A stretch of DNA of 64,000 nucleotides, from positions 195 to 64,194 of the forward strand of contig SYLI01000018.1 of assembly GCA_005809105.1 (NCBI GenBank), in the 5' to 3' direction. The notes below the pieces were generated by a model. It saw nothing but the letters and a program-made list of their open reading frames with translations. It did not search any database and was not told where the DNA came from. Of this stretch, positions 2,478-30,545 are shown piece by piece (position 1 is the stretch's first letter; every line of letters begins with the position of its first letter). This stretch comes from Verrucomicrobiales bacterium. Its GTDB lineage: Bacteria; Verrucomicrobiota; Verrucomicrobiia; Limisphaerales; UBA1100. The translations under genes were made by a program, and so were the position numbers.

Positions 2478-2537
2478 GTGGCAAGCATCGCAAAGGTTTC
2501 CCGGTGCTGGCAACCGCGCAATGGGGATGGCCCTTTT

Positions 2538-10977: not shown

Positions 10978-11628
10978 ATGTCCAACATCTTTCCAAAATG
11001 GACCAACCGGCTGCCGCTTTTGGTGCTGGTGGGCGGGCTGCTACTGGGTGGCGGCGTGGTGACGGGGGTGACCTATTATTTTACGCCCAAGTACGCCAAC
11101 GTCGGCTACCAGCCGTTGCAGCCGGTTTCCTTCTCGCACAAGATTCACGCCGGGGAACTGGGCATGGACTGCCGCTACTGCCACAACGGCGTGGAGAAGT
11201 CGTGGTTCTCGAACGTGCCGGCGGCTTCGACTTGCATGAACTGCCACGGGGTGGTGCTCAAGGATGACCCGCGGCTGGCGCCGGTGCGCGAGAGCCACGA
11301 GAAGCACACGCCGCTGCCCTGGGTGCAGATCCACAAGACCCCGGACTACGTCTACTTCAACCACTCGGTGCACGTGAATCGCGGCATCTCCTGCGTGCAT
11401 TGCCACGGCAAGATCACGGAGATGGACGAGGTGCGGCATGAGAAGTCCTTGAGCATGGCCTTCTGCCTCGACTGCCACCGCAACACCCACGAGAAGATTC
11501 GCCCCTTGGAGCAGGTGTACAACCTGGACTGGAAGGGCGAGGGCTTCGCGCCTGAACGCGAGGGCCGCGCGCTGGCTGGCAAGCTGGGCGTGGAGGGCTC
11601 GCAGAGCTGCTCGGTCTGTCATCGATGA
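10978..11628 (+). CDS. actA: Alternative Complex III subunit ActA, pentahaem cytochrome c
   Basis: N-terminal TM helix plus five CxxCH motifs (CRYCH, CMNCH, CVHCH, CLDCH, CSVCH). First gene of the act cluster. Confidence 0.85.
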   Translation: MSNIFPKWTNRLPLLVLVGGLLLGGGVVTGVTYYFTPKYANVGYQPLQPVSFSHKIHAGELGMDCRYCHNGVEKSWFSNVPAASTCMNCHGVVLKDDPRLAPVRESHEKHTPLPWVQIHKTPDYVYFNHSVHVNRGISCVHCHGKITEMDEVRHEKSLSMAFCLDCHRNTHEKIRPLEQVYNLDWKGEGFAPEREGRALAGKLGVEGSQSCSVCHR

Positions 11629-14600
11629 GCGCACTCGATTCTCAAATGGAAGGCGCCCCGGGAGTGCAGTACTGGCGCGGTTTGCAGGCCCAGGGGCTGC
11701 TGCCCGAAAACGTGCCGCACACCGCCCTAGAATTCCCGAAGGATGCGGACCGGATGGATCCGGATTTTTCGCGCCGCGACTTCATGAAGTTGATGGGCGC
11801 CTCCTTTGGTCTGGCCGGTCTTGCTGGACTCGGGGTGGCGTGCCGGCGTCCGGTGGAGATGGTCGTGCCCTTTGGGCAACAGCCCGAAGGCTACACGCAC
11901 GGCGTCGCGCAGTATTTCGCCAGCGCCCGGCCCACGCGCACCGGCGCGGTGCCTCTCCTGGTGGAATCGAACGAAGGCCGGCCCACCAAGGTCGAGGGCA
12001 ACCCGGATTTCCCTGGTGGCAATGGCAGCACCGACCTGCATACGCAGGCGGCGATTCTCAATCTGTATGACCCCGACCGCGCGTCGGTCTTCCGGGGCGA
12101 GAAGGGTGAAACGCTGTCGCGGTCGGAGGCGCTTCAAAAATTGCGCACCGACGTCGTGCCGACGGCGCGCAACAACAACGGCGCGCACGTGGCGTTTTTG
12201 TTGGAGCCGGGCACATCGCCCACTCGCCTGCGGCTCCTGGCTCGCGTCAAGGAGACGCTCCCCGCCGCGAAATTCTACCAATGGGATCCGCTGGGTTTGG
12301 ACGTTTCTGCACGCGCGTCGGAAGCCGCATTTGGCAAGCCGGTGCGCCCTCACTACCACCTGGACCGGGCCGACGTGATTCTGTCGCTGGACTGCGATTT
12401 CATCGGTGGTGAGGAGGACTCGCACCGGCACATTCGCGATTTCGCCCGGGGGCGCAAGCTCAACACGACCACGGCGCGCAACATGTCGCGCCTCTACGTC
12501 GTGGAGCCGCTGATGACCCTCACCGGCGCCAGTGCCGACCATCGACTGCGCCTGCGTGCGGGCGACGTGGCCGGAGTCGCCGCGGCCCTCGCAGGGCGGC
12601 TGGGGTTGCCGGGGTTTGACGACAAACACCTTCCTTCCTCGGTGAAGGCCTCGTGGCTCGATCAATGCGCTGGCGACCTGCGCGGTGCATCCGGCAGGGT
12701 CGCGGTGCTGGCCGGGCACCGCCAGCCGGCCGCCGTGCATCAACTGGCGCAGGCGCTCAACGAAGCCCTCGGAGCCATCGGCGTTGAGGCCGATCACAAG
12801 CGGCCGGTGGAAATGCTTCCCGGCGTTCATCCAGCGGATGACTGGAAGGCGCCGGTGCACGGAGGCCTTGATGAACTGGTGAGCGAACTCAATGCCGGAA
12901 GGGTGCGCGAGCTTGTCATTCTTGGCGGCAATCCCGCCTACACCGCGCCGGCGGACTTGAACTGGGCCCAAGCCCAGGCCAGGGCCAAAACCGTCGTGCG
13001 GTTGGGCGATCATGCCGACGAATCCTCGCGCGGTTGCACGCTGCATCTGGGAAAAGCGCACTTTCTGGAATCGTGGGGCGACGCGCGAACCACCGACGGA
13101 ACTCTCGTGCCGGTGCAGCCGCTCATCCAGCCTTTGTTTGGCGGCTTGTCCGAGCTGGAGGTGCTTGCGGAATTTGCCGGTGTCAACCGTGCCGGCGCGC
13201 ACGAGCTGGTGCGCGAAACGTTCCGCGAGTTGACCGGCGCCGAGAACTTCGAGGATCGCTGGAAGCAGTTTCTCCATCAAGGCTTCTGGCCCGGAAGCGA
13301 ATCGCCGGTGGAGGCCGTCAAAGGTGCCAAGACCTCGCCTCTGGCGCCGGCGGGCGAGGGGCTTGAGGTGATTTTCACGCGTGATCACAGCGTGGAAGAC
13401 GGGCGTTATGCCAACAACGGCTGGCTGCAGGAGCTGCCCGATCCCATCACCAAGATCACTTGGGACAATGCCATTCTCGTGAGCCGCAAGACGGCCGAGG
13501 CTCAAGGCTGGCAGAACGGGTTGCGCCTTGCATTGACCGTGGGGCCGCGCTCGGTGGAGGGGCCGGTGTGGATCCAGCCCGGCCAGGCCGACGGCACGCT
13601 GGCGCTGGCGCTGGGGTATGGCCGCGATCCGAAGGCCTTCGGCGGGCGCATTGCCTGCTTTGGTGGCAAGGCCGTGGGTTTTAACGCCTACGCCATCCGC
13701 ACGGCGGGGCGCCTGCATTTTGATTCCGGCGCCAAGGCGGCACTGGCGCGCGGCACTCACAAGTTCTCCTGCACGCAGGATCACTGGTCGATGGAAGGTC
13801 GCGCGATTGTGCGCGAGGCCAATCTGGAGGGCGAATCCGGGTATGCCAAGAAGCCCGACTTCGCGCGGCAGATGGACTTGGACGCGCCCGAGCACGCGCG
13901 TCACACGATTGATCCCAAGACCGGCAAGCCCTATCAGATTTACGAGCACCCCTACAACGAGCGGCCCAAGCTCAAGAATGCGGCCGTCCAGTGGGGCATG
14001 TCGATTGACCTCAACTCCTGTGTCGGCTGCAACGCGTGCGTGGTTGCCTGTCAGAGCGAGAACAACATCCCCATCGTGGGCAAGGAGCAGGTGGGCAAGG
14101 GGCGTGAGATGCACTGGCTGCGCATCGACCGCTACTACACCGGGTTTGCCGGCGACCCCCACCACCGCGACACCGGGACGGATGCCGGGCAGTCGGCCCT
14201 TCATTGGATTGACGATCCGCAGGTGGTGCAGCAGCCCATGCTCTGCCAGCACTGCGAGTCGGCCCCGTGCGAAAGCGTCTGCCCCGTCAACGCCACCGTC
14301 CACGACGACGAGGGCTTGAACGTCATGGTGTACAACCGCTGCATCGGCACGCGGTACTGTTCCAACAACTGCGCATGGAAGGTGCGCCGGTTCAATTTCT
14401 TTGATTACAACAAGCGGCCGATCACCGCGCTCTACCAGGGGTTCCTCGCCAGCGTGGAGAAGGACGATCCCGGCGCGTGGGACGTGCTCAAGCTGGCGAA
14501 AAATCCGGACGTCACGGTGCGCATGCGCGGCGTCATGGAAAAATGCACCTACTGTGTGCAGCGCATCGAGCAGGCGAAGATCGCCCGCAAGCTCGCGGCC

Positions 14601-14999
14601 AGCCGTGAGTATCGCGACGCCGTGGCGCGTGATGGCAAGGGCCACGCGGTGGACGCGGTGGTGCCCGACGGGACTGTCCGGACGGCCTGCCAGCAGGCGT
14701 GCCCGGCGGAGGCAATCTCGTTTGGCAACATGGCCGATCCAGAGAGCCTCGTCTCGCAGTTGAAGCGGCTGCCCCGCAACTACGCGGTGCTGGGTTTCCT
14801 GGACACCAAGCCGCACACGACCTACCTGGCGCGCGTGCGCAATCCCAATCTCAAGGTGCCCGGCCCGTACGACGGCTACTACACCAAGCCGCTCAGCTCG
14901 CAGGACTACGACTCCAAGGCCGCGCATCCTGATGCGCATGGCACGCAGGGTGATCACGGCGCCGCGCCGGGGAGCCACAAAGAAGGAGGGCAGCCATGA
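11625..14999 (+). CDS. actB: Alternative Complex III subunit ActB (molybdopterin-oxidoreductase-like + Fe-S domains)
   Basis: Twin-arginine signal [10 protein letters not shown]. Large MopB-like N-terminal part. C-terminal ferredoxin-type clusters [44 protein letters not shown] overlap with actA. Confidence 0.9.
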
Positions 15000-16474
15000 G
15001 CGCGCACGCGCCCACGGATTCGTCGCCCGCGTACAGCACCACGACGCCGCCCGAATTGCAGCGGGTGCCGCTGGTGTTGGGGCAGCGGTCGCTGGGTTGG
15101 ATTTCCGATAAGATTTCCAGCATCGTCGAGGGCGACACCCCGCGTTGGTGGTGGTACGCGTTCATCCCCAGTTTCCTCATCGCGACGCTGGGCTTCGCGG
15201 CCATCGGCTACATGATCACGACGGGCATCGGCGTGTGGGGCCTCAACAACCCGGTCATGTGGGGCTGGGCGATCGTCAACTTCGTGTGGTGGATCGGCAT
15301 CGGCCACGCCGGCACGCTCATCTCGGCCATCCTCTTTCTGCTGCGGCAGAAATGGCGCACGTCCATCAACCGCGCTGCGGAGGCCATGACCATTTTTGCA
15401 GTGATGTGCGCGGGCATTTTCCCGGCCATTCACGTGGGACGCGTGTGGTATCTGTGGTATCCGCTGCCGATTCCCAATGGCAACGACATCTGGCCCCAGT
15501 TTCGTTCGCCTCTGTTGTGGGACGTGTTCGCGGTGTCTACCTACTTCACGGTGTCGCTGCTCTTCTGGTACATGGGATTGATCCCCGATCTGGCAACGCT
15601 GCGTGATCGGCTGAGGGTTCAGGCGCTGCGACTGACCGATCCAGCCGCGAAGTTCATCAACAAAGCCAAGCAGGCGCTTTATGGATTCTTCGCGCTGGGT
15701 TGGACAGGCTCCAACCGGCATTGGAGCCACTACGAGAAGATGTATTTGCTTTTGGCGGGGCTCTCCACGCCGCTGGTGTTGTCGGTCCACTCCATCGTGT
15801 CCTTCGACTTTGCCGTGTCGCAGGTTCCCGGATGGCATACCACGATCTTCCCGCCGTACTTTGTGGCGGGGGCGATCTTCAGTGGATTTGGCATGGTGCT
15901 GACGCTGATGATTCCAATGCGCAGCCTCTTCAAGCTGGAAGAGATCATCACCGAGCGCCACATCGAGCTGATGTGCAAGGTGACCCTGGCGACCGGCTCC
16001 ATCGTGGGCTACGCCTACGGGATGGAATTTTTCATCGCTTGGTACGGGGGCAGCCCCTACGAGCTCTACGCGTTCAAGAACCGCGCCTTTGGACCCTACT
16101 GGTGGGCCTACTGGATCATGGTGAGCTGCAACGTCATCAGCCCGCAGTTCTTCTGGTTCAAGAAAGTGCGCACCAACATGGTGGCGGTGTTTGTCCTCTC
16201 CATCTTTGTCAACATCGGCATGTGGTTTGAGCGCTTCGTGATTGTCGTGACGTCGCTGCACCGTGACTTCCTCCCCGCCAGCTGGGGCCATTACGGGCCG
16301 ACCTGGGTGGACGTGGTCACCTACGTGGGCACGATGGGCTTCTTCATGACGCTCTTCCTGCTCTTCATCCGGTTCCTGCCGCTGATCGCCATTTCCGAGG
16401 TGAAGGGGGTCACTCCGCAGGCCGATCCCCACCATGAACTGGGCGGCGCGACACGGGAAGGAGCCCGCGGATGA
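14996..16474 (+). CDS. actC: Alternative Complex III subunit ActC (NrfD/PsrC-like quinol-interacting membrane subunit)
   Basis: 492-aa polytopic membrane protein of NrfD type, directly after actB with an ATGA overlap. Confidence 0.9.
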
Positions 16475-17001
16475 GCCGCGCCCACGGCATTCTGGCGGAG
16501 TATCCGACGCCCGCGGCGGCGATGGCGGCGGCCGTGCGCGTGCGCGACGCAGGCTACTCGCGATGGGACGTGCACACGCCCTTTCCGGTCCACGGGATGG
16601 ACGAGGCGATGGGCCTCAAAAACTCGCCGGTGGGCTGGTTCACTTTTCTGGGCGGCTTGAGCGGCTACACGGGCGGCATGCTCATGATCTGGTTCATGAA
16701 CGCCTACCACTACGACATCGTGGTGGGCGGCAAGCCGCTCTTCAGCGGGTTTTATGCGTTCCCCGTCTGCTACGAGCTGACGATCCTACTCGGCGCCTTC
16801 GGCTCGATTCTGGGCATGCTCATCCTCAACCGGCTGCCGCGATGGCATCATCCGCTTTTGAGCAACCTGCGCTTTGCGCAAGTCACGCACGACAAGTTTT
16901 TCCTCGTCATCGAATGCGACGACGTGAAGTACGACGAAGCCCGCGCCCGCGCCCTCCTGCAAGCAGGCGCGGACCACATCGAGATGGTGGAGGACGACTA
17001 G
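16471..17001 (+). CDS. actD: Alternative Complex III subunit ActD
   Basis: 176 aa. N-terminal [10 protein letters not shown]....[16 protein letters not shown] signature followed by two TM helices. ATGA overlap with actC. Confidence 0.8.
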
Positions 17002-17002
17002 C

Positions 17003-17701
17003 ATGCGCCTCATTTTTGCAGGAATGGCGGTGTTGGTGCTGCTCGTGGTGGGGCTCTTGGGATTTCGGGGCAGCTCCTCTCGCAAGCCCCCGCTGGAAAT
17101 CTTTCCCGACATGGACCGCCAGCCCAAGCTGCGGCCCATGGAGCCCAACCGGTTTTTCCCCAACGGAATCAGCTCGCAGCCCACGCCCGAGGGGGCCGTG
17201 CCCCGCAGCCGCCCCGTGGTGGACCGTGAAGGCCGCAAGGTTTTCCCCTACCAGAATGACCATCCGGTCAACAGCGGGCGGGTCGCCGGCACCACCAACT
17301 ATCTGACTCTGTCGCCGCTGCCGGTATCGCGCGAAGTCGTCGCGCGCGGTCGCGAGCGTTACGCCATCAGCTGCGTGCCCTGCCACGGCGAACTGGGCGA
17401 CGGGCAGGGCATGGTCACCCGCATGGCCGTGGGCATGGCGGCTGCCAATCTGCATGATCCGGCCATCGTGCGCATGGCCGACGGCCAGCTTTACCGCACG
17501 CTGGCCTTTGGCAGCAAGGAAGGGCAGGGAGTGATGAAGGGTTACGCTTCGAACATCGACGTGGCCGACCGCTGGGCCATCGTGGCCTACCTGCGCGCCC
17601 TGCAGTCCTCGCGCCTTGCCAGCCTCGAGGAATTGAAGAGCTTGGAGAAGGCTCAGCCGGGCACCGTGCCCGCCGCGCTCTTGCAGCCCAAATCGAATTG
17701 A
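17003..17701 (+). CDS. actE: Alternative Complex III subunit ActE, monohaem cytochrome c
   Basis: N-terminal TM anchor, single CVPCH haem motif, and a downstream Met-containing segment. Starts 1 nt after the actD stop. Confidence 0.8.
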   Translation: MRLIFAGMAVLVLLVVGLLGFRGSSSRKPPLEIFPDMDRQPKLRPMEPNRFFPNGISSQPTPEGAVPRSRPVVDREGRKVFPYQNDHPVNSGRVAGTTNYLTLSPLPVSREVVARGRERYAISCVPCHGELGDGQGMVTRMAVGMAAANLHDPAIVRMADGQLYRTLAFGSKEGQGVMKGYASNIDVADRWAIVAYLRALQSSRLASLEELKSLEKAQPGTVPAALLQPKSN

Positions 17702-17703
17702 CG

Positions 17704-18891
17704 ATGAGCGCCCACGCCACTGCCGCCGCGCACGCCCACGCCGAGGATCATGTCCCGACGATGTGGGAGCGCCTTCCTTGGATGGCGGCGGCGCTGGGCT
17801 TTTTGGGTTGTCTGGCCGGCTACGTGTTCGAGGGGCCCAAGAATTTTGCGCACGCGTATCTCGTTGCGTTCATGTTTTTCCTGAGCCTCGGGTTGGGCGC
17901 GTTCTTCCTCGTGGTGATTCACCACCTCTTTGATGCGTACTGGTCGGTGCCCACCCGTCGGTTTCTGGAACACCTGGCCTGTCTGCTCCCGTGGATGGCG
18001 CTGTTCTTCCTGCCCATCGGTCTCTTGAGCGGCGACCTTTACTACTGGATGAACGTGGATCCTGCAAAGGATCACTCGCTGGCCGTCAAGCAGGTGCTCT
18101 TTAACAAGGCCACTTGGGGCGTGGCCAGTGCAGCCCTCTTCGGGATCTGGTGGCTGTGGACGCACCGGCTGCGCGGCTGGTCGCTGCGCCAAGACGAGAC
18201 GGGCGCGGCCGAGTGCACGACTGCCATGCGCCGCTGGGCGGCCTCGGGCATCTTCGTGTTCGCCTTTTCGCTCACGGCCGCGGCGATTTTCTGGATGAAG
18301 TCGCTGGAGCACCAGTTCTTCTCCACCATGTACGGCGTGTACTACTTTGCGGGGAGCGTGTGGATGACGCTGGCCACGGCCTACGCCATCGCGCTGCTGT
18401 TGCGGCGTTCAGGGCGTGTGCCGATGATGGGCCAGGAACAATTCCACAGCCTCGCCAAGCTGCTCTTCGCCTTCACAGTGTTTTACGCGTACATCCACTT
18501 CTCGCAGTACTTCCTCATCTGGAACGCCGCCATGCCGGAGGAAACCTTCTGGTACGCCAAACGCGAGCAGGGCACCTGGGCCATCGTGGGCTGGGTGATC
18601 ATCCTCGGCCACTTTGTGCTGCCCTTCCTGGTGCTGCTGCGCATCGATGCCAAGCTCAGCACCAAGGTCGTCATTCCTATTTTCGTCTGGGTGTGGCTGA
18701 TGCACCATCTGGATCTCCAGTTTAACATCATGCCACTGGTGCAGCCCGAGGGCCCGGCCTTCCTGATTTCCACCTTGGGTGCGCTGCTGTTCATCGGTGG
18801 CCTGCTCGCTGCGCTGTTCCTCTGGGACCTGCGCCGGCATCCGGCCTTCCCGTTAAAGGATCCGCGCATGGGAGAGGTGGTCCGCCACTGA
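17704..18891 (+). CDS. actF: Alternative Complex III subunit ActF (second NrfD-like membrane subunit)
   Basis: Polytopic membrane protein related to ActC. ATG 17704 lies 2 nt after the actE stop; the ORF-track start at 17698 is a TTG. Confidence 0.8.
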   Translation: MSAHATAAAHAHAEDHVPTMWERLPWMAAALGFLGCLAGYVFEGPKNFAHAYLVAFMFFLSLGLGAFFLVVIHHLFDAYWSVPTRRFLEHLACLLPWMALFFLPIGLLSGDLYYWMNVDPAKDHSLAVKQVLFNKATWGVASAALFGIWWLWTHRLRGWSLRQDETGAAECTTAMRRWAASGIFVFAFSLTAAAIFWMKSLEHQFFSTMYGVYYFAGSVWMTLATAYAIALLLRRSGRVPMMGQEQFHSLAKLLFAFTVFYAYIHFSQYFLIWNAAMPEETFWYAKREQGTWAIVGWVIILGHFVLPFLVLLRIDAKLSTKVVIPIFVWVWLMHHLDLQFNIMPLVQPEGPAFLISTLGALLFIGGLLAALFLWDLRRHPAFPLKDPRMGEVVRH

Positions 18892-18892: not shown

Positions 18893-19276
18893 ATGAGCAA
18901 TCCCGGCACCCATTCCAATCATCGCGGCTGGCAGGCCTACGAAGTGGCGGCCGTATTGCTCGTGGTGCTCCTGGCCGTGTGGGTTTGGGGCCGCGCGCTT
19001 GAAGGATCGCGTGGCGAGGCGCCGGGCACGGCGCGCGCCAAGGAGCGTCAGGACAAGCTCACGCAAAGCCGCGAGCAGGCGCGTCAGGAACTGGAAAGCT
19101 TTGGCGCTCTGGATGGCCAGCGCTTCCGCATTCCCGTCAGCAGGGCGATGCAAGAGGCCGCCGATGCGATGGCCAAGGATCCGGCCGCCTTCCGCTCCGA
19201 CCTGCTCCAACGTCTTCCGCCTGCGCCAGAGACCCCCGCGGCACCGGTGGCACCGGCGGGCAACCAGAGCAACTGA
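18893..19276 (+). CDS. Small single-TM protein in the ActG position (hypothetical)
   Basis: 127 aa with one TM helix (AAVLLVVLLAVWVW) and a charged/Pro-Ala-rich tail. Starts 1 nt after the actF stop and ends 3 nt before the next gene. Confidence 0.5.
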   Translation: MSNPGTHSNHRGWQAYEVAAVLLVVLLAVWVWGRALEGSRGEAPGTARAKERQDKLTQSREQARQELESFGALDGQRFRIPVSRAMQEAADAMAKDPAAFRSDLLQRLPPAPETPAAPVAPAGNQSN

Positions 19277-19279: not shown

Positions 19280-20731
19280 ATGAGCTGCCACGCCTCAACC
19301 CACGCGCACGCCTGCGGCCCCGCGACGCCAGAAACCGTGGACGCCTCGTGCCGTGGCGCCGTGCTGCTGCTGTTGGGCAGCGCGCTCGGCTGGCTGGTGC
19401 TCTCCACGCTGGCGCAGGTGCTGGCCTCGCTCAATTTCCATTCTCCTTCGCTGCTGGCGGGTTGCTCATTTCTGAGCTACGGACACCTCCAGTCGCTGGC
19501 GGGCACGGCGTTCATCTTCGGATTTGGCGGTAACGCGGCCTTCGGAATTTCCCTGTGGCTCTTGGCGCGCCTGCGCCAGACGGGATTGAGGCTTCCCGTC
19601 TCGGCGATTCTGGGAGGCATGGTCTGGAATGTGGGAGTCACTGCGGGCGCGCTGGGCATTCTGCAGGGTGATGCCAGCGGCTACGAAGGCATCGAACTGC
19701 CGCTCTACGCGCTGCGCCTGGTGATTGCCGGAGGCGCGATGATCGCGCTTTGCGCCGTGCTCACCTACCTGGCTCGATCACAGGAGGAATTGTACCCCAG
19801 TCTTTGGTATGTGCTGGCGGGGTTGGTGGTGTTGCCTGCGGCATTGGCGACGGTCTATCTGGCGCTTGGGGATGACCCGGTGCGCGGCGTGGCGCAAGCC
19901 AGCACAAGCTGGTGGGCGGCGTCGGCGCTGCGGGTGCTCTGGCTGGGTTCGATGGCTCTGGCGGCGGTGTTTTATTTCGTGCCCAAGCTGGTGGGAACAC
20001 CGCTCTACAGCAGGCAGCTGGCTGGATTTGGATTCTGGGGACTGCTCTTGCTGGGCGGCTGGGTCGGCGTTCCCGCCGAGGCGCCCGTGCCGGCATGGAT
20101 GACCCGGATGGGTGCCTTTGCATGTGTCCTCATGATCTTCCCGCTGTTCGCGGTGGTGTGGAACGTCCACCGCACCATTGGCGCCAATGCCGTGATGATG
20201 TCGCAGGATCTGACCCTTTCCTATCTTGGATTTGCACTGCTGTGCTTTCTGCTCTCAGGCTTGGCCGGCGTGTTGCAGCCCGTGCACGCGCACACCACGC
20301 AGTTCACGCTTTTCCCCGTGGCGGTGAAGCACCTTTGGAGCTTCGGTTTTGTCGTTATGACCGTACTGGGGGCCTGTGTTTACATGACGCCCCGGCTCGT
20401 CGGCCGCGACTGGGCAGGTGCCGGATGTCTTCGTTCCAATTTCAAGGTGGCCACGGCGGGGGTGCTGCTGCTGGTGATTCCGCAGCTCTTGGGCGGCTGG
20501 ATGCAGGGGCAGGGTTTGAATGACGCGGCGCAGGCGTACTCCAACCTACCGGCCAAGGCGCTCATGGCGCTGCGCGCGGCGTTCTTGGGCGAACTGCTCT
20601 TGCTGGTGGCCGCACTCATGGCTTTGAGCAATTTTCTCCGGCTGTTGGGCCCCGCGTGTTGCGGAGGCTGCTGCCCGCTGGAGTTTTTCCGCATGATCCG
20701 GCAATCCAAGAACACGCGGGGTGCTGCATGA
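19280..20731 (+). CDS. cbb3-type cytochrome oxidase subunit I (CcoN) homologue with a degenerate metal-ligand set
   Basis: 12-TM-type protein with clear CcoN-like blocks (FIFGFGGNA, FYFVPK..PLYS, VPAW). By my by-eye alignment it lacks the CuB and haem b3 histidines (see findings). Confidence 0.75.
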   Translation: MSCHASTHAHACGPATPETVDASCRGAVLLLLGSALGWLVLSTLAQVLASLNFHSPSLLAGCSFLSYGHLQSLAGTAFIFGFGGNAAFGISLWLLARLRQTGLRLPVSAILGGMVWNVGVTAGALGILQGDASGYEGIELPLYALRLVIAGGAMIALCAVLTYLARSQEELYPSLWYVLAGLVVLPAALATVYLALGDDPVRGVAQASTSWWAASALRVLWLGSMALAAVFYFVPKLVGTPLYSRQLAGFGFWGLLLLGGWVGVPAEAPVPAWMTRMGAFACVLMIFPLFAVVWNVHRTIGANAVMMSQDLTLSYLGFALLCFLLSGLAGVLQPVHAHTTQFTLFPVAVKHLWSFGFVVMTVLGACVYMTPRLVGRDWAGAGCLRSNFKVATAGVLLLVIPQLLGGWMQGQGLNDAAQAYSNLPAKALMALRAAFLGELLLLVAALMALSNFLRLLGPACCGGCCPLEFFRMIRQSKNTRGAA

Positions 20732-21879
20732 ACCGCGTGCCCCTGCTCATCGCCTGCATCTTGCTCGCGCTGGCGCCGGCGTGGTTCTCGCTCGTGCGGA
20801 TCGCCGCCCGGCAACAGTCCAGTCTGGCGCCGCATACCCGCGGCGAGTCGATCTATCCGCAGGACCGCGTTGGCCAGGCCAAGATGGGCCGCGAGGCTTA
20901 CCGCGCCAATGGCTGTTACCATTGCCACAGTCAGCAGGTGCAGCAGGGTGCCGTCGTCTACAATCTGTTCCTGACGGGTTCGGGCGCCAATCGCGAGGGG
21001 TTGCTTTCCGCAATGGGTCGCCGCGTGGAGGCCGCCAATGCCACCGGCAATCAGGTGCAAACCAAATCGTGGTCGGCCGCGAGGGATGCAGGCGCGTTGC
21101 ACACGGCGCTCTTTCTTAACACCGATGATTTCAAGACGCTGGACGAAGCCAGACTGGCGCAACGGCCGGAGGCCGGGGTTGCTCTGAAGCTCGAAGCGTC
21201 GGCGCGATTGGAGGCGCTCAGTTTGGCGGCGCTGGCCGACAAGAACGAGATTGCGCGTGCGCGCCGACTGCTCAAGCTGCCGCAAGAGGAGAATTCGACC
21301 GCGCCCGTCAAAGCCGACAAGCCGGGCTTATTCCTTGCTGGACCGGTGGGCTGGACTGAGGCCCGGGCGGCCGTTGCGGCGTTAAAAAACGCTGGGGGCG
21401 TTGTGCTCATGCAGCCCGAACTCGCGCCCGTGGCCCAAGGCCAGCCGGTGGGCGACACGGTGGCGCATGGCGGCTCCACCGCGTGGGGTCAGCGCCGCAG
21501 CGTTGGCCGCGACTATCTGTTTGAAACTCCCCTCATGCTTGGCTCGCAGCGCATCGGGCCCGATCTGGCGCATCTGGGCGGCCGGTGGAAGGGCGACGCA
21601 TGGCATTACCAGCATCTCTATAATCCCCGCGCCCAGGGAGTGGGCCATCCAAAGTCAGTGATGCCCCCCTACCGATTCCTGTTCACCCGCAGGGCGGGAG
21701 CCAAAATGTCAGAGGCGGAGATGGCGCAGGGCGGCTTTGTGTCGGGCAACGAAGTGGTGCTTCCAAAGCCGGAGGCGCGCGCCTTGGTGGCCTATCTTCG
21801 CAGTCTGGAGCAGCCTGATCTGTTGCCGGAGGCGCCTGCGCCCAAGTCTCGCGCGGCAGTCCTTCGCCCCAATCCATGA
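20728..21879 (+). CDS. cbb3 oxidase subunit II (CcoO)-like monohaem cytochrome c with a large insertion
   Basis: N-terminal TM helix, CYHCHSQ haem motif, and CcoO-like blocks GSQRIGPDLAHLGGRW, WHYQHLYNPR, SVMPPYRFLF. ATGA overlap with the upstream gene. Confidence 0.75.
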   Translation: MNRVPLLIACILLALAPAWFSLVRIAARQQSSLAPHTRGESIYPQDRVGQAKMGREAYRANGCYHCHSQQVQQGAVVYNLFLTGSGANREGLLSAMGRRVEAANATGNQVQTKSWSAARDAGALHTALFLNTDDFKTLDEARLAQRPEAGVALKLEASARLEALSLAALADKNEIARARRLLKLPQEENSTAPVKADKPGLFLAGPVGWTEARAAVAALKNAGGVVLMQPELAPVAQGQPVGDTVAHGGSTAWGQRRSVGRDYLFETPLMLGSQRIGPDLAHLGGRWKGDAWHYQHLYNPRAQGVGHPKSVMPPYRFLFTRRAGAKMSEAEMAQGGFVSGNEVVLPKPEARALVAYLRSLEQPDLLPEAPAPKSRAAVLRPNP

Positions 21880-22505
21880 GCGCACCTCAAGTCCACAAGC
21901 CCCAGCCGGATTCACCGGAGCCCACGGCAGCCGTGGCGCCGATGTCCGTGGCGGTGTTCGTTGCGCTGGCGGTGGTGCTCCATGCGGGCATGACCAGGGT
22001 GGACCGCGCGGCGGGCGCCTTCTCGCCACTGGTGTACGCGCCCTATTCGTCCGAAGAGGAATGGCAGGCGATGGCGGCACGGTCGCCCCTGGAGCTTCAG
22101 CAGGAACGTGGCGCGGCGATTTTCAAGGGCAAGGGCGGCTGCATGGGCTGCCATCAGGCGGGTGGCGAAGGTTCCACGGGTCAGAACACGCCGCCGCTGG
22201 CGGGGTCGGAATGGGTGCTCGCCGACAAGCCCGACCGCATCGTACGCATCGTGCTGCACGGGCTGAGCGGCCCGGTGAGCGTGAAGGATCGCGTGTGGAC
22301 GGGAGGCACGATGCCGCCGGTGGGAGCCAATCTGTCCGAGGAGGAGATTGCCGATGTGCTCACGTACATTCGCAGCGCCTGGGGCAACGCGGCCCGGCCT
22401 GTGGACGTGAAATCCGTAAAACTGATTCGCGACGCCGTGGGCTCCCGCGCCAAACCCTGGACGGCGCCGGAACTGGAAGCCGTGCCCGTCAGCGCGGGCA
22501 AGTGA
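21876..22505 (+). CDS. Membrane-anchored monohaem c-type cytochrome
   Basis: TM helix (VAVFVALAVVL), CMGCH haem motif, MPP distal Met region, and C-terminal LTYIRSAWGN typical of class I cytochromes c. ATGA overlap with the upstream gene. Confidence 0.75.
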   Translation: MSAPQVHKPQPDSPEPTAAVAPMSVAVFVALAVVLHAGMTRVDRAAGAFSPLVYAPYSSEEEWQAMAARSPLELQQERGAAIFKGKGGCMGCHQAGGEGSTGQNTPPLAGSEWVLADKPDRIVRIVLHGLSGPVSVKDRVWTGGTMPPVGANLSEEEIADVLTYIRSAWGNAARPVDVKSVKLIRDAVGSRAKPWTAPELEAVPVSAGK

Positions 22506-22562: not shown

Positions 22563-23918
22563 ATGAAGGCTGCATCGCTCCTTTCTCTCCTGCTCCTTTG
22601 GCTGCCGCTTGACGCCGCCCCATTCCGCGTCGCGCCCTTCAGCGCCGACGTCACCGTGCCCATGGGGCATGGCATGATGGGCGGCCTGTGGAAATCCAAA
22701 TCCGTGGCCGACCCCTTGCTGGCGCGCGGCATCGTTCTCCTGGGCGGCGACAAGCCGGTGGTGTTTGTTTCGGTGGACTGGTGCGAAATCCGCAACGCGG
22801 CGTTTGACCGCTGGCGTCTGGTGCTGGCCGAGGCTGCGGGCACCGATCCCCTGCGCGTGATGGTCAGCTGCATCCATCAGCACGACGCGCCCGTGGCTGA
22901 TCTTGAGGCGCAGCGCATGCTTGAGGAGCGCAAGCTGGCCGGCAGCATCTGCGACCTTGAATTCCATGAGAAGGCCGTGCGCGCCGTGGCAGCGGCGGTG
23001 CGAGAGGCCATGAAAACGCCGCGCCTCGTCACGCATGTGGGGCTGGGCCAGGCGAAGGTCGACCGCGTGGCCTCCAACCGCCGATACGTGCTGCCCGACG
23101 GCAAATTTTCATTCGGACGCGGCAGCGCCAGTGGCAAGAACGTGCTCGCGGCCGGGGCGCCCGAAGGCACGGTCGATCCGTGGCTCAAGACGCTCAGCTT
23201 CTGGGACGGCACCAACGCCATCGCCGCGCTGAGCGGCTACGCAACCCATCCCATGAGCTACTACCGCACGGGCGATGTTTCGGCAGACTTCCCCGGCGAT
23301 GCCCGCGCGCGGCGCCAGAAGGAAACGCCCGGCTGCCTGCAGGTATATTTTTCAGGCGCCAGCGGCAACGTCACTGCAGGTAAATACAATGACGGCGCCC
23401 GGACCAACCGCGCCGTGCTAGCGGGCCGCCTGCACGACGCCATGACGCGCGCATGGAAGGAGACACAGCGGCAACCCCTCCAGCGCGTTGACTTCCGCAG
23501 CACCACGGTGCGGCTGGAACCGCGGAACCATGCCGGATTTACCGTGGAGGATCTCAGGGGCAAACTCAAACCCGGCATCGACCCATTTCAACAATGTCTC
23601 GCGGCCATGGGGCTGAGCTGGCGTGCGCGCGCCGATGCCGGCCACAAGATTGACGTGCCGGTGCTGGATTTTGGGCCGGCCCAATTGCTGTTGCTGCCCG
23701 GAGAGAGCTATGTGGAATACCAGCTCGCCGCCCAGCAGATGCGCCCCGACTCGTTCGTGCTGGTCGCCGGTTACGGCGAATGCGCGACCGGCTACGTGCC
23801 CACCGAGAAGCACTGGGAGGAGGGCGACGGCAATCTGGGCGACTGGTGCTGGGTGCATCCCGGCGCGGAAAAACCGCTCTTGGATGCCATCCGCAGAGTG
23901 CTGGTGCCGGTGAAATGA
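22563..23918 (+). CDS. Secreted hypothetical protein, distant ceramidase-like fold (tentative)
   Basis: Signal peptide (MKAASLLSLLLLWLPLDAAP). SCIHQHDAP motif in a position analogous to NASHCHG of CDS 945..2477. Starts 57 nt after the respiratory operon, on the same strand. Confidence 0.45.
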   Translation: MKAASLLSLLLLWLPLDAAPFRVAPFSADVTVPMGHGMMGGLWKSKSVADPLLARGIVLLGGDKPVVFVSVDWCEIRNAAFDRWRLVLAEAAGTDPLRVMVSCIHQHDAPVADLEAQRMLEERKLAGSICDLEFHEKAVRAVAAAVREAMKTPRLVTHVGLGQAKVDRVASNRRYVLPDGKFSFGRGSASGKNVLAAGAPEGTVDPWLKTLSFWDGTNAIAALSGYATHPMSYYRTGDVSADFPGDARARRQKETPGCLQVYFSGASGNVTAGKYNDGARTNRAVLAGRLHDAMTRAWKETQRQPLQRVDFRSTTVRLEPRNHAGFTVEDLRGKLKPGIDPFQQCLAAMGLSWRARADAGHKIDVPVLDFGPAQLLLLPGESYVEYQLAAQQMRPDSFVLVAGYGECATGYVPTEKHWEEGDGNLGDWCWVHPGAEKPLLDAIRRVLVPVK

Positions 23919-23934: not shown

Positions 23935-26900
23935 CTAGTCTTGCGTGCGAAACGCCCACGCGCACAGCGAGGGCAGCACCAGAAGCGTCAGCACCGTGGA
24001 GGTGAGGATGCCCCCCATGACGACGGTGGCCAGCGGGCGTTGCACCTCCGCCCCCGTGCCCGAGGCAAACGCCATCGGCAGGAAGCCCAGCGCCGCCACC
24101 AGTGCCGTCATCAGCACGGCGCGCAACCGCAGCAGCGAGCCCGTGCGCACCGCGGAGAGTAGATCGCCTCCCCCCGCGCGCTGTTGCTGGATGAAGGTCA
24201 CCAGCACGAGTCCGTTTAACACCGCCACACCCGATACGGCGATGAACCCGACCCCGGCCGAGATGGAGAAGGGCATCCCGCGCATTGCAAGGGCGGCCAC
24301 GCCGCCCGTCAGCGCCAGCGGCACGCGCGTGAACCCCAGCAGTGCGGGTTTCGCCGCACCCAGCGCTGCGTGCAACAGCAGGAAAATCATCACGAAACAG
24401 ACCGGCACCACGAAGGCCAGCCGGTTGCGCGCACTCAAGTAATGCTCGTACTGGCCGCCCCATTGCGTCCACAGACCCGGCGGCAGCGCCGCCCCGCGCA
24501 CCACGGCCGCCTGCGCCTCGCGGACGAATCCGCCCAGGTCGCGCCCGCGCACGTTGGCCACCACCGTGATCCGCCGCTGGCCGTTGTGGCGGCTCACCTG
24601 GAAGGGGCCTTCGCCCTCGTCCAGATCGGCCAGCAGGCGCAGGGGAAGCACGTGCGGCAGGCCGGTGTGGTGCGGGTTGTTGGCCAGCGTCACTGCGTTG
24701 GGCCCTTCGTGAGGCTTTGCGGGCAGGGGCACGGGCAGATCGTCCAACTGCCGGCGGTCGGTGCGCACGGCTTCGGCCAGGCGCACCACCACGTCGAAAC
24801 GCTTGTCGCCCTCGAAGATCTGCCCTGCGGCATGACCACCCACCGCGCTGGTCACGGTGTCCACGATGTCGGCACCGGTCAATCCATGGCGGGCAAGCGC
24901 GCCCACCTTGGGGCGCACCGTCAGCATGGGCATTCCGGTCGTCTGCTCAAGGCGCACATCGGCGGCGCCGGCCACCGCCTGCAGCGTTTGGGCCACGCGC
25001 GATGCGGCTGCCCTCAGCTCGTCCATGTCGCTGCCGTACACATGCACCGCCACGTCGGCGCGGGTGCCGGCGATCAGTTCGTTAAACCGCATCTGAATGG
25101 GCTGGGTAAACTCGTAATCGTTGCCCGGCACGGCCTCCACCACCTCGCGCAGGCGCTGCTCCAGTTGGCCGCGAGAGAGCCTTGGATCGGGCCACGCCGC
25201 GCGATCCTTGAAGGTGATGAACGTGTCCGACACATGGGGCGGCATGGGGTCGGTGCCCAGATCAGTCGTGCCCGTTTTGGAGAACACCACCGCCACCTCC
25301 GGCAACGTGCTGATGGCCCGTTCCAGCTGCAGTTGCATCTCCGTGGCCTGATCCAAGCCCGTGCCGGGAATGCGCACGGCGTGCATGGCGATGTCGCCTT
25401 CGTCCAGCACGGGGATGAACTCATGGCCGAGCCGTGTGAAGAGCACGAGCGCGCCCGCACAGAGGAGCGTCGCGCCAGCCACCACCATGCGTGAGTGGCG
25501 CAGCGATCCGTCCAGCCACGGTGCGTAGAGCCGGCGCGCGCCGCTCATGAGCGGGTTCTCCGCCTCGGAAACCGGGCCGCGCACGCACAGCGCCACCATC
25601 GCCGGCACAAACGTCAGCGACAGGACAAACGCCCCCGCCAAAGCGAAGATCACCGTCAGCGCCATGGGGTGGAACATTTTCCCCTCCACACCGGCCAACG
25701 CCAGGATGGGAATGTACACGATGATGATGATGGCCTCGCCGAACACCGTGGCGCGTCGCACCTCGTGACTGGCGTGGCGCACGGTTTCCAGCCGCTCCTC
25801 GCGCAGCAGCGGCCGGCCCAGTTCCCGCTGGCGTTCCGCCAGCCGGCGCAGGCAGTTCTCCACGAGGATCACCGACCCGTCCACGATGAGGCCGAAGTCG
25901 ACCGCGCCCAGGCTCATCAGATTGCCGCTGATGCCCGCCGCCACCATGCCCGTGGCCGCCAGCAGCATGGAGAGCGGGATGGCCAGGGCCGTGATGCACG
26001 CCGCGCGCACGTGCCCCAGCAGCGCCAGAAGCACCACCACCACCAGCACCGCGCCGTAAAAGAGGTTGTGCTGCACGGTCGCGATCGTGGCGTTGACCAG
26101 TTTGGAGCGGTTCAGAAGCGGCGTGATGGCGATGTCCGGCGGCAGGCTGCGCTGCACTGCAGGCAGCTGCTCTGCCACGGCGCGCGCCACGGCGCGGCTG
26201 TTGCCACCCGTGCGCATCAGCACCGTGCCCACCACCGTCTCGCGTCCCTCGTGCGATGCGCTGCCCTGCCGCGCCGCGCCGGCGACCACCACGTCGGCCA
26301 CGTCTCCCACGAGCACCGGGGTGCCCCGCTTCTGCGAGATGGGCACGCGCGTGAGCGCCTCGCGCCTCTGCACGCGCGCATCCACGCGCACCAGCAGGGT
26401 TTCGCCACGGCGCTCCATGCGGCCGGCGCCGGCCACCCGGTTGTTTCGTTCCAGCGCGGTGATGAGGTCGCGCAGGGACAGGCCGTGCGCCAGCAGGTCC
26501 TGCAGGCGCGGCTGCACCTCGTACTGTTTAATAAATCCGCCCACGGCCTCGATGTCGGCGATGTCCCTCACGGTGCCCAGAAACTGCGGGCGCACCAGCC
26601 AGTCCTGCAGCGTGCGCAGATAGGTGAGCCGTTGGACTTCGTTGGTGAGCTGCTCGCCCTCGGGCGTCAGGTAATCGCCATTGGCCTGCAGCCCCGGGGT
26701 GCCCGTGGCGTTGCCCTGACTTGTGCCCATGTGCAATGACCACATATACACCTCGCCCAGGCCCGTGGAGAGGGGGCCCATCCGTGGATCGGCACCCTCC
26801 GGCAGCGTGGATCGGACATTCCCCAGCCTTTCATTGATCTGTTGGCGCGCGAAGTAGATGTCCATCGCGTCGTCAAATATCGCCGTCACCTGGCTGTAGC

Positions 26901-27165: not shown

Positions 27166-27171
27166 GTGCGC

Positions 27172-28737: not shown

Positions 28738-28752
28738 GGGACTGTCGGGGTA

Positions 28753-30102: not shown

Positions 30103-30164
30103 ACGCAGGAAAGGCCACACAGCCCCAAGAGGCCGCATGGACAAAGGAACGCGCGGGCGTTCCC

Positions 30165-30545
30165 CTAGACGACAATGGCTGGAGTGCGCGCGGGCAACGC
30201 GACGCGTGTGAGGAAATGCCAACGACGCAAGAGGCCCGGCGGCGACACATCGTGCGTGCCGGACGGTTGTGGGTGAAGTGGGACAGGATTGACGACGGCG
30301 ATCGGGAGGAAAATCCAACTCGCAGGAGCCACGATGACGGTTGGCGCGGCCATTTCCACGCTGCCGCCCTCAAGGCTCGTGCACTGCGCACAATCCTCGG
30401 GTGACTGTACAGGTTCACTGTGCTTGCCCGCAGCGTCACAGCAGTCGTGCGAAGCCCAGTCGAGCGATGCCAGAAGGCAGTGCGACGTCGCCGGCAACCA
30501 GCACATCAGGAGCACACTCGCCAGAAAGCCACGCAGGCGGCTCAT
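30165..30545 (-). CDS. Small Cys/His-rich secreted or membrane protein leading the czc operon (hypothetical)
   Basis: Signal peptide ending LPATSHC, cluster HDCCDAAGKH...EDCAQC, then a hydrophobic segment (VIVAPASWIFLPIAVV). 62 nt upstream of czcC. Confidence 0.45.
   Translation of the reverse strand: MSRLRGFLASVLLMCWLPATSHCLLASLDWASHDCCDAAGKHSEPVQSPEDCAQCTSLEGGSVEMAAPTVIVAPASWIFLPIAVVNPVPLHPQPSGTHDVSPPGLLRRWHFLTRVALPARTPAIVV

What the first reader, a model, noticed from the sequence alone, without database searches (positions are those of the whole stretch)
19280..20731. CcoN (cbb3 oxidase subunit I) homologue that seems to have lost five of six haem/CuB histidine ligands and the cross-linked Tyr - a 'pseudo-oxidase' wired to ACIII
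The 483-aa product aligns block-for-block, by eye, with canonical CcoN as I remember it from Pseudomonas stutzeri. The metal ligands, however, are substituted.
- Canonical LRPLHTNAVIFAFGG (haem b His) reads LQSLAGTAFIFGFGG here.
- WWYGHNAVGF (CuB His) reads WWAASALRVLW.
- YIWAGPHHLHY (cross-linked Tyr plus two CuB His) reads GGWVGVPAEAP.
- GHVHAGALGW (haem b3 His and haem b His) reads AVKHLWSFGF, so only one His is retained.
The flanking non-ligand blocks are conserved (FYFVPK..PLYS, GFWGL, VPAW). This argues for a real homologue rather than noise.
The protein also gains Cys/His-rich termini: MSCHASTHAHAC at the N-terminus and CCGGCC near the C-terminus. Both look like metal-binding motifs.
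A catalytically dead haem-copper oxidase scaffold, translationally coupled to ACIII on one side and to c-type cytochromes on the other, is not something I know to be described. It could act as a structural or electron-relay scaffold, or as a metal-handling subunit.
Basis: partly seen in the sequence, partly recalled or inferred. Interest (0 to 1): 0.85.

Follow-up and report, generated by a model that had tools for sequence, protein, structure and literature searches.

The report
Ligand-less cbb3 subunit beside ACIII
This gene encodes a well-conserved relative of the catalytic subunit of cbb3 oxygen reductase that has lost its haem and copper ligands but is kept, with two intact haem-c partner subunits, at the end of alternative-complex-III operons in many Verrucomicrobiota; it is probably a structural scaffold rather than an oxidase, although databases label it as an oxidase.

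Summary
ORF 19280-20731 is a true CcoN homologue by sequence profile and by predicted fold. Three independent alignments put A, S, P, A and V at the haem and CuB histidine positions and G at the cross-linked Tyr. Only the H347 equivalent remains.

It is not a decayed gene. It belongs to a large clade in which about 190 of 203 sampled proteins carry 0-2 of the six His. The clade appears derived from canonical, fully liganded ACIII-linked cbb3 oxidases of Verrucomicrobiota. It is under purifying selection (dN/dS 0.17). In 29 of 29 informative loci the order is actABCDEF, small protein, this gene, CcoO-like gene, monohaem cytochrome c gene.

The partner subunits keep their haem-c motifs everywhere (one Met-motif exception, L030). 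The proton-pathway residues and the ccoS-like gene found before ccoN in most canonical relatives sampled are gone.

Best reading: a cofactor-less scaffold that anchors two c-type cytochromes as the electron exit of ACIII. I found no prior description in the searchable literature. A 2024 survey of the superfamily calls the active-site histidines completely conserved outside gNOR. Public pipelines name these proteins cbb3 subunit I (K00404). Function is inferred, not shown.

The parts
10978..11628 (+). actA, pentahaem cytochrome c subunit of alternative complex III
   Evidence: Pfam Cytochrome_C7 and c3 hits. NCBIfam QrcA-like, E=2e-22. Conserved at the head of the operon in related loci.
11625..14999 (+). 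actB, large Fe-S subunit of ACIII (1124 aa)
   Evidence: Syntenic with genes carrying Fer4 domains in related loci. Overlaps actA and actC by 4 nt.
14996..16474 (+). actC, NrfD-type quinol-binding membrane subunit
   Evidence: Pfam NrfD, E=5.8e-25. 70-91% identical across ligand-less loci.
16471..17001 (+). actD
   Evidence: Pfam ActD PF11821, E=5e-60.
17003..17701 (+). actE, monohaem cytochrome c
   Evidence: Pfam Cytochrom_C and Cytochrome_CBB3. One CXXCH motif in every locus.
17698..18891 (+). actF, second NrfD-like membrane subunit. It has no Pfam hit. The start may lie 2 codons downstream, as gene callers give 395 aa.
   Evidence: Position and synteny. 49-87% identical across loci.
18893..19276 (+). 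127-aa protein with one predicted membrane helix, ActG-like by position
   Evidence: Homologous to the 135-aa protein at the same position in the canonical ACIII-cbb3 operon L035, and to ORFs in most ligand-less loci. No Pfam family.
19280..20731 (+). Ligand-less CcoN homologue ('psN'), the finding itself: a 12-helix haem-copper-oxidase subunit I fold without haem or CuB ligands
   Evidence: homology, fold, ligand columns. (family-wide loss). (dN/dS 0.17).
20728..21879 (+). CcoO-like monohaem cytochrome c ('psO', 383 aa) with an insertion of about 190 aa
   Evidence: Pfam FixO, E=7.5e-21. CYHCH, GPDL and SVMPPY motifs are present. CXXCH and GPDL are in every locus; the Met motif is missing only in L030. 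ATGA overlap with the psN stop codon.
21876..22505 (+). CcoP-like monohaem cytochrome c ('psP', 209 aa)
   Evidence: Pfam Cytochrom_C, E=1e-13, and Cytochrome_CBB3. CMGCH motif; one CXXCH in every locus. ATGA overlap with the psO stop codon.

Best explanation
The 483-aa protein is a non-catalytic, cofactor-less descendant of CcoN, the catalytic subunit of cbb3 oxygen reductase.

Proposed history. An ancestral verrucomicrobial super-operon encoded ACIII followed by a working cbb3 oxidase. In one lineage the CuB, haem b3 and haem b ligands, the cross-linked Tyr, the proton-pathway residues and the adjacent ccoS-like maturation gene were lost.

Proposed function. The 12-helix protein was kept because the two membrane-anchored c-type cytochromes encoded after it still need it as their assembly platform. 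These are the CcoO-like and CcoP-like subunits. The trio forms a haem-c exit module attached to ACIII. Electrons would run from quinol through ActC and ActB to the ActA and ActE haems, then to the psP and psO haems. They would leave to a separate terminal oxidase or reductase. An A-family oxidase is encoded directly downstream in some basal relatives.

What is shown: homology, fold, loss of ligands, conservation, selection, synteny, and intact haem-c motifs in the partners. What is inferred: absence of cofactors, physical association with ACIII, the direction of electron flow and the identity of the acceptor.
For: - True CcoN homologue and fold.
- Five of six His and the Tyr are replaced by A/S/G/P/A/V. 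Of 203 family proteins, 107 have none of the six His, 68 have one and 9 have all six. No His, Met, Cys or Lys column is conserved only in the ligand-less clade. The single clade-specific consensus residue is A248, which replaces S240.
- The polar residues I recall as the cbb3 proton pathway are replaced: T215G, Y223F, S240A, H243G, Y317F, E323A.
- A neighbour-joining tree places the fully liganded sequences basally, with one exception (P0053), and the ligand-less ones in essentially one derived clade. Canonical relatives L035 and L043 have the same actABCDEF-small gene-ccoN-ccoO-cytochrome c order. L035 adds a 62-aa FixS/CcoS-like gene (PF03597) before ccoN; L043 has an unassigned 76-aa ORF there. 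That gene is absent from all ligand-less loci.
- Purifying selection: dN/dS is 0.167 for psN, against 0.145 for actB and 0.147 for actE. psN still evolves about twice as fast as canonical CcoN at equal ActC divergence: 42-46% against 65% identity. The largest loss of conservation is in helices 6-11, the catalytic core.
- psO keeps CXXCH and GPDL in every locus and the S-x-M-P-x-Y/F Met motif in all but one (L030). psP keeps one CXXCH in every locus.
- Synteny with ACIII holds in 29 of 29 informative ligand-less loci, at 31-71% identity. Start and stop codons overlap.
- A-family oxidase genes follow psP in L031 and L038.
Against: - There are no biochemical data. Haem or Cu content, complex formation and activity are all untested.
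- The window and 27 of the 29 related loci have no terminal oxidase gene nearby, so the electron acceptor is unknown.
- The rest of this genome could not be searched for other oxidases.
- A 12-helix protein is a costly anchor for two small cytochromes, which leaves room for a further, unseen function.
- The model coordinates could not be inspected for filled or open haem cavities.
- The tree is a simple distance tree, so one loss against several losses is not firmly resolved. Basal members with partial ligand sets exist.
Confidence: 0.6

Rival explanations
1. It is still a redox enzyme. It would bind haem or another cofactor through non-canonical ligands and reduce O2, NO or another substrate.
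For: The fold is fully preserved. The gene is under purifying selection. It still sits next to electron-donating cytochromes. Some basal clade members keep both haem ligand sets, such as P0082, or the low-spin haem pair, such as P0143. The query keeps the H347 equivalent.
Against: No His, Met, Cys, Lys or Tyr column is conserved specifically in the ligand-less clade. The retained His is present in only 11% of members. Ligand positions are mostly A, G, P, Q or N. Small residues next to the ligands that are conserved in canonical proteins (G at query 219 and 353) are not kept in the clade and read V and W in this protein. The proton-pathway residues are lost. No ccoS-like gene is present.
Confidence: 0.07
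2. It has been repurposed for a non-redox membrane function. Examples would be an ion or proton conduit, or a conformational coupling partner for ACIII, with the cytochromes being incidental.
For: A 12-helix membrane protein is conserved and tightly coupled to ACIII. Proton translocation by ACIII is proposed but unproven in the literature (PMC5928083).
Against: The polar residues of the only known cbb3 proton pathway are replaced by G, F and A. No new conserved polar or charged transmembrane residues appear in the clade. The partner cytochromes are kept with intact haem motifs in every locus (one Met-motif exception, L030), which argues they are the point of the module.
Confidence: 0.1
3. It is a decaying pseudogene or a functionless relic carried along in the operon.
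For: All catalytic residues are lost. It evolves about twice as fast as canonical CcoN.
Against: The reading frame is intact and full length in more than 190 diverged homologues at 30-70% identity. dN/dS is 0.17. Codon usage is normal. Structural residues shared with canonical CcoN are conserved. Translational coupling with both neighbours is kept.
Confidence: 0.02
4. It is a physical adaptor that docks ACIII to an A-family (aa3-type) oxidase, forming a supercomplex built around a fossil oxidase. This is a stronger version of the scaffold idea.
For: Basal ligand-less loci L038 and L031 read ACIII-psN-psO-psP-COX2/COX1/CtaA. Canonical L035 also has COX2 after its CcoP-like gene. The Pfam hits for these COX2 proteins show no cytochrome c domain, so they would need a haem-c donor. 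An ACIII-caa3 supercomplex is known in R. marinus (PMC5928083).
Against: Only 2 of 29 ligand-less loci have an adjacent A-family oxidase. The window itself has none within 64 kb. There is no structural or biochemical evidence.
Confidence: 0.2

Closest known systems
CcoN, subunit I of cbb3-type cytochrome c oxidase (C-family haem-copper oxidase; P. stutzeri 3MK7, R. capsulatus 6XKW)
   Same: Same 12-helix fold (TM 0.85-0.88). Same Pfam family. Shared structural motifs: WW before helix 6, FYFxPK, FW, PxPxW and the E-x-x-E periplasmic loop. Followed by CcoO-like and CcoP-like cytochromes.
   Different: It lacks the ligands of haem b, haem b3 and CuB, the cross-linked Tyr and the proton-pathway residues. 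It scores 92.7 bits against the 583-bit cutoff of the ccoN equivalog model. There is no ccoS-like neighbour. Its CcoP-like partner has one haem where, from memory, the Pseudomonas protein has two.
ACIII-linked canonical cbb3 operons of Verrucomicrobiota (Terrimicrobiaceae and Chthoniobacterales MAGs, loci L035 and L043). ACIII-cbb3 co-location is also reported for Methylacidiphilum (PMC6688271).
   Same: Identical gene order: actABCDEF, small single-helix protein, N subunit, FixO-type subunit, monohaem cytochrome c. The small protein is homologous. These appear to be the sister or ancestral state in the tree.
   Different: Those CcoN proteins keep all six His and the Tyr. L035 carries a CcoS-like gene before ccoN (L043 has an unassigned 76-aa ORF there). 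They are 64-90% identical to each other. The ligand-less clade evolves about twice as fast.
ACIII-caa3 supercomplexes (Rhodothermus marinus, PMC5928083; Flavobacterium johnsoniae, from memory)
   Same: ACIII operons are followed by genes for the complex that takes their electrons. Haem-c domains bridge the two.
   Different: There the partner is an active A-family oxidase with a fused cytochrome c domain. Here the partner's core subunit has no redox centre.
HCO families with altered active sites (gNOR, NOD; Murali et al. 2024, PMC11214002)
   Same: Members of the haem-copper oxidoreductase superfamily that depart from the canonical ligand set.
   Different: [quoted passage not shown]
Dead-enzyme structural subunits of respiratory complexes, such as the core 1 and core 2 proteins of mitochondrial bc1, which derive from a processing peptidase (general knowledge)
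   Same: A catalytic fold is retained as a structural part of an electron-transfer complex after its original activity is lost.
   Different: Unrelated fold and lineage. This is an analogy of principle only and was not tested here.

Membership tests
Haem-copper oxidoreductase superfamily, subunit I (Pfam COX1 PF00115) | Sequence profile match above the curated threshold | tested here: met
   112.4 bits against a 34.8-bit cutoff, E=3.1e-32, covering profile positions 3-411 of 436.
Haem-copper oxidoreductase superfamily, subunit I | Twelve-helix core fold | tested here: met
   AF2 model with pLDDT 88 and pTM 0.89, twelve long helices. TM 0.85/0.88 to 3mk7_A.
Haem-copper oxidoreductase superfamily, subunit I | Six His ligands: two for the low-spin haem, one for the high-spin haem, three for CuB/FeB | tested here: not met
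   A74, S215, P265, A266 and V349 replace five of them. Only H351 (= H347) remains. That position is His in only 11% of the clade.
C-family oxygen reductase CcoN (TIGR00780 equivalog) | Equivalog model score at or above the cutoff | tested here: not met
   92.7 bits against a 583.15-bit cutoff.
C-family oxygen reductase CcoN | Cross-linked active-site Tyr in helix 7 (Y251) | tested here: not met
   G259 in the query. Tyr is present in 1% of the clade.
C-family oxygen reductase CcoN | Proton-pathway residues (T215, Y223, S240, H243, Y317, and E323 near haem b3). The residue list is from memory of the 3MK7 paper; residue identities were checked against the 3mk7_A sequence. | tested here: not met
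   G223, F231, A248, G251, F323 and A329. A248 is the clade consensus at 85%, against S at 92% in canonical sequences.
C-family oxygen reductase CcoN | Encoded with CcoO (FixO) and a CcoP-type cytochrome c | tested here: met
   FixO, E=7.5e-21, and Cytochrom_C / Cytochrome_CBB3 in the next two genes. Conserved in all loci.
C-family oxygen reductase CcoN | O2 reductase activity and bound haem b, haem b3 and Cu | not testable with these tools
   Needs purified protein.
Alternative complex III gene cluster (accessory module) | Encoded directly downstream of actABCDEF on the same strand | tested here: met
   True in the window and in 29 of 29 informative ligand-less loci.
Alternative complex III gene cluster (accessory module) | Physical association with the ACIII complex | not testable with these tools
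   Needs co-purification or cryo-EM.
Pseudogene | Disrupted frame or neutral evolution | tested here: not met
   Intact 483-aa ORF. dN/dS 0.167 against the 71%-identical orthologue. Full-length homologues down to 30% identity.

The most novel reading that the evidence does not exclude
A fossil oxidase serves as the keystone of a new respiratory supercomplex. The cofactor-less CcoN would hold two haem-c subunits and physically bridge ACIII to a separate A-family oxidase or another terminal reductase. A whole branch of the haem-copper oxidase superfamily would then have become a purely structural, electron-wiring module. Partial-ligand intermediates (haem-only forms) would record the stepwise loss.
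Probability: 0.2. Interest if true: 0.85.

Novelty: new variant of a known kind. Interest (0 to 1): 0.72.

Why it matters
First, the haem and copper ligands of subunit I are treated as the defining invariants of the haem-copper oxidoreductase superfamily. A large, selected clade without them would be a clear exception. It would also be a natural experiment on what the fold does apart from catalysis, such as assembly of CcoO and CcoP or docking in a supercomplex.

Second, these proteins are named 'cbb3-type cytochrome c oxidase subunit I' or K00404 by PGAP, JGI and Tara annotations. Surveys that use ccoN as a marker of high-affinity, microaerobic respiration probably over-count it in Verrucomicrobiota from lakes, oceans, soils and groundwater.

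Third, the series from fully liganded through haem-only to ligand-less forms, all in the same operon context, makes the evolutionary route from enzyme to scaffold directly testable.

Tried and rejected
- **The downstream 451-aa secreted protein as electron acceptor.** The gene at 22563-23918 follows psP in 11 loci. It has no PDB sequence match. It belongs to a very large family similar to the neutral/alkaline ceramidase N-terminal domain, with more than 7400 homologues and no redox motif. I rejected it as part of the system.
- **Structure of the CcoO-like subunit.** Only a single-sequence prediction was possible. The model had pLDDT 39.8 and was unusable, so no fold search was run.
- **Promoter and terminator scan of the operon.** No promoter-like site was found, and only weak hairpins inside coding sequence. 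Uninformative.
- **A-family oxidase next to the module as a general rule.** It was found only in L031 and L038 and not in the window. It is kept as a minority scenario.
- **Metal-binding termini as a family trait.** The N-terminal run is shared only with the closest relative. The C-terminal Cys cluster occurs in about 30 of 203 proteins.
- **Literature.** Ten full-text searches and several papers gave no description of a ligand-less CcoN (papers read).
- **An unresolved lead.** The 'unknown group' of PF00115 sequences mentioned in PMC5492636 is credited to Muntyan et al. 2015, which could not be read. Older subscription papers on ACIII gene clusters and cbb3 phylogeny were not searchable either.
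- **First genome-collection scan.** The broad 28-sequence alignment failed because it had no conserved stretch. A narrower alignment worked.
Full report
**Observation.**
Window 19280-20731 (+) is an intact 483-aa ORF. Its third-position GC is 0.78, like that of its neighbours. The identical protein was found on nine contigs, including two NCBI MAG assemblies and a Logan run assembly, so it is not an assembly artefact.

It matches Pfam COX1 (PF00115) at E=3.1e-32, 112 bits against a cutoff of 34.8, over residues 28-416. It reaches only 92.7 bits on the ccoN equivalog model TIGR00780, whose cutoff is 583.

phmmer against PDB sequences finds only cbb3 subunit I chains, including 6xkw_n and 3mk7_A, at E about 1e-17. 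An AlphaFold2 model built on 28 family members is confident, with pLDDT 88 and pTM 0.89, and shows twelve long helices. Its best Foldseek matches are CcoN chains. For 3mk7_A the TM scores are 0.85/0.88, rmsd 2.7 A and identity 21%. NorB and A/B-family subunit I follow.

**Ligand columns.**
I rebuilt the P. stutzeri numbering from the phmmer alignment. The positions read:
- H60->A74, H207->S215, Y251->G259, H257->P265, H258->A266, H345->V349, and H347->H351, which is kept.
- The polar residues I recall as the cbb3 proton pathway, plus the Glu near haem b3, are also replaced: T215G, Y223F, S240A, H243G, Y317F, E323A. The residue identities at those numbers were verified in the 3mk7_A sequence.
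- E122 of the periplasmic loop is kept.

A MAFFT family alignment gives the same column assignments. So does a profile-profile alignment of 28 ligand-less against 14 fully liganded relatives (hhalign probability 100%, E=6e-122, 471 columns). The by-eye alignment was right.

**Not a one-off.**
A word-indexed search found 55 relatives at 25-100% identity. A full profile search of 1.84 billion representatives found 798 at E<=1e-30, and all of the best 150 were at E<=4e-111.

Of the 203 proteins in hand, the count of the six His positions occupied is:

| His kept (of six) | Proteins |
|---|---|
| 0 | 107 |
| 1 | 68 |
| 2 | 16 |
| 3 | 2 |
| 4 | 1 |
| 6 | 9 |

The His retained in the query is present in only 11% of the clade. 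No His, Met, Cys or Lys column is conserved specifically in the ligand-less proteins. The only clade-specific consensus residue is A248, which replaces the proton-pathway Ser.

In a neighbour-joining tree the fully liganded sequences are basal, with one exception (P0053, on a long branch). The ligand-less ones form essentially one derived clade. This is a simple distance tree, so a single loss is likely but not proven. Basal members keep partial sets. P0082 keeps both haem ligand sets but not Y251, H257 or H258. P0143 keeps only the low-spin haem pair. This hints that CuB and the Tyr were lost first.

**Selection.**
Against the 71%-identical orthologue in a Lake Baikal Pedosphaera MAG (L004), dN/dS values are:

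| Gene | dN/dS |
|---|---|
| psN (this gene) | 0.167 (dN 0.20, dS 1.21) |
| actB | 0.145 |
| actE | 0.147 |
| CcoO-like (psO) | 0.188 |
| cytochrome c (psP) | 0.193 |

The protein is therefore constrained, but less so than an active CcoN. Two canonical ACIII-linked loci with 77% ActC identity have 65% CcoN identity. Ligand-less pairs with 74-78% ActC identity have only 42-46%. Relative to canonical sequences, conservation drops most in helices 6-11, the catalytic core, and least in helices 1-5.

**Context.**
The window carries a tightly packed plus-strand operon:
- actA 10978-11628
- actB 11625-14999
- actC 14996-16474
- actD 16471-17001
- actE 17003-17701
- actF 17698-18891
- a 127-aa single-helix protein, 18893-19276
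- psN 19280-20731
- a CcoO-like gene, 20728-21879
- a monohaem cytochrome c gene, 21876-22505

psN starts 3 nt after the upstream stop codon. Both downstream junctions are ATGA overlaps.

A scan of species-representative genomes returned 31 loci. Nearly all are Verrucomicrobiota MAGs (Pedosphaera, Limisphaerales, Verrucomicrobiales, Chthoniobacteraceae). There are single records labelled Acidoferrum and Planctomycetaceae for ligand-less loci. The Granulosicoccaceae and Myxococcota records (L029, L032) carry canonical liganded CcoN. The samples are from lakes, oceans, groundwater and soil.

A tblastn map, plus four further look-ups of distant members, shows the same order in 29 of 29 ligand-less loci that have upstream sequence. 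That order is actABCDEF, small protein, psN, psO, psP. Three loci were too short to tell. The small protein is homologous to the one at the same place in canonical operons.

**The partners are intact.**
The CcoO-like protein keeps CXXCH and GPDL in every locus. It keeps the S-x-M-P-x-Y/F motif, which holds the axial Met in CcoO, in all but one (L030). The last cytochrome keeps one CXXCH everywhere. So the haem-c subunits remain under functional constraint while the membrane core has lost its redox centres.

**Ancestry.**
Fully liganded CcoN proteins of Terrimicrobiaceae and Chthoniobacterales (P0045, P0450) sit in the same ACIII-linked arrangement. In L035 a 62-aa FixS/CcoS-like gene (PF03597, E=4e-7) lies just before ccoN. 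tblastn finds this gene only in canonical loci L035/L036 and L027, and in no ligand-less locus or the window. L043 has an unassigned 76-aa ORF at that position. Other canonical relatives (L041, L029, L032, L027) are not ACIII-linked.

Canonical L035 has a COX2 gene after its cytochrome c. Two basal ligand-less loci continue with A-family oxidase genes: L038 with COX2-COX1-CtaA, and L031 with COX1-COX3-...-COX2-CtaA. Most ligand-less loci have no oxidase gene nearby, and the window has none within 64 kb.

**Interpretation.**
The most economical reading has three steps:
- An ancestral ACIII-cbb3 super-operon, sometimes with an aa3 oxidase as well, lost oxygen reduction in the cbb3 part.
- The CcoO-like and CcoP-like cytochromes were kept as the electron exit of ACIII.
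- The core subunit persisted as their membrane scaffold.

From memory of cbb3 assembly work, CcoO stability depends on CcoN. That dependence would explain why the core could not simply be deleted. This is an inference.

I put about 0.85 on 'cofactor-less and non-catalytic' and about 0.6 on the full scaffold and relay model. The rivals are non-canonical cofactor binding, a non-redox transport role, and a functionless relic. Each is weighed in its own section of this report. The relic reading is effectively excluded by conservation and dN/dS.

**Comparison with the known.**
It works like a structural subunit derived from an enzyme. By homology and fold it belongs to the HCO subunit I superfamily. 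It fails the defining cofactor features of that superfamily and the equivalog threshold for CcoN, so it should not be filed as a cbb3 oxidase subunit.

[quoted passage not shown] ACIII operons followed by oxidase genes, and an ACIII-caa3 supercomplex, are known (PMC5928083). ACIII-cbb3 co-location is reported for Methylacidiphilum (PMC6688271).

I found no description of a ligand-less CcoN clade in ten full-text searches. The library lacks most subscription papers. One lead, the 'unknown group' of Muntyan et al. 2015, could not be read. NCBIfam has no dedicated model. PGAP, JGI and Tara label these proteins cbb3 subunit I, K00404 or COG3278.

The N-terminal MSCHASTHAHAC run is shared only with the closest relative. 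The Cys cluster after helix 12 (CCGGCC) is conserved as CCGCCNP in the nearest subclade, and variants occur in about 30 of 203 members. It is real but lineage-limited, and its role is unknown. By homology with CcoN it should face the cytoplasm, which I state from knowledge of the 3MK7 topology.

**Verdict.**
The finding is a new, widespread non-catalytic variant of a known family. Its function is inferred from sequence, and the immediate practical consequence is for annotation.

Noticed in passing
L042 10001-12205 (protein P0055): A 734-aa fused CcoN-CcoO protein (PF00115 + PF02433) whose ligand columns read Q/Q/C/R/D/Q/T. It is preceded by a 346-aa cytochrome c and is not next to ACIII. It may be a second, independent ligand-less HCO lineage. 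Identity to the query is only 27%, so the alignment needs checking.
   Followed up: partly
Proteins P0082, P0143, P0153 (basal members of the ligand-less clade): These carry partial ligand sets. P0082 (Opitutales MAG) keeps H60, H207, H345 and H347 but has A/Q/Y at Y251/H257/H258. P0143 keeps only H60 and H347. P0153 keeps only H60 and H207. They look like intermediates in a stepwise loss.
   Followed up: partly
window 20657-20674 (aa 460-465 of the 483-aa protein): A Cys cluster, CCGGCC, lies directly after helix 12. It is conserved as CCGCCNP in the nearest subclade. Variants CPC, CCRECCHC and CCKCC occur elsewhere, in about 30 of 203 family members. Function unknown.
   Followed up: partly
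window 20728-21879: The CcoO-like protein carries an insertion of about 190 aa, rich in Ala, between the CYHCH motif and the GPDL...SVMPPY region. The protein's length varies from 222 to 462 aa among ligand-less loci, so the insertion is not universal. The single-sequence AF2 model was unusable.
   Followed up: partly
window 22563-23918 (+); also 945-2513 (-): A 451-aa secreted protein of a very large family similar to the neutral/alkaline ceramidase N-terminal domain (PF04734), with more than 7400 homologues, mostly labelled hypothetical. It follows the cytochrome c gene in 11 related loci and is more conserved (67-81%) than the module itself. A second, weak PF04734 protein lies at 945-2513.
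   Followed up: partly
window 31743-39226 (-): A 1428-aa ThuA + DUF7133 + cytochrome c fusion protein, followed by a DUF7133 protein and a cytochrome c + PA14 protein. These could be periplasmic dehydrogenases feeding the cytochrome c pool. A related 1462-aa DUF7133 protein lies near the ACIII cluster in L039.
   Followed up: no
window 51029-55229 (+): A PSCyt2/PSD1 (DUF1549/DUF1553) and DUF1501 gene pair, which I recall as typical of Planctomycetes-Verrucomicrobia genomes.
   Followed up: no
window 23935-30318 (-): An RND efflux operon (AcrB-type pump, HlyD-type adaptor, outer-membrane factor) converging on the ACIII operon.
   Followed up: no
L031 12902-14870: The A-family COX1 gene downstream of the ligand-less module is split into two overlapping ORFs (12902-14494 and 14043-14870). 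This is either a frameshift or an assembly error.
   Followed up: no
L012, L013 (record titles): Two MAGs that carry the ACIII-psN cluster are titled 'Akkermansia muciniphila'. They group with Pedosphaera-like sequences, so the label is probably a taxonomic mislabel.
   Followed up: no
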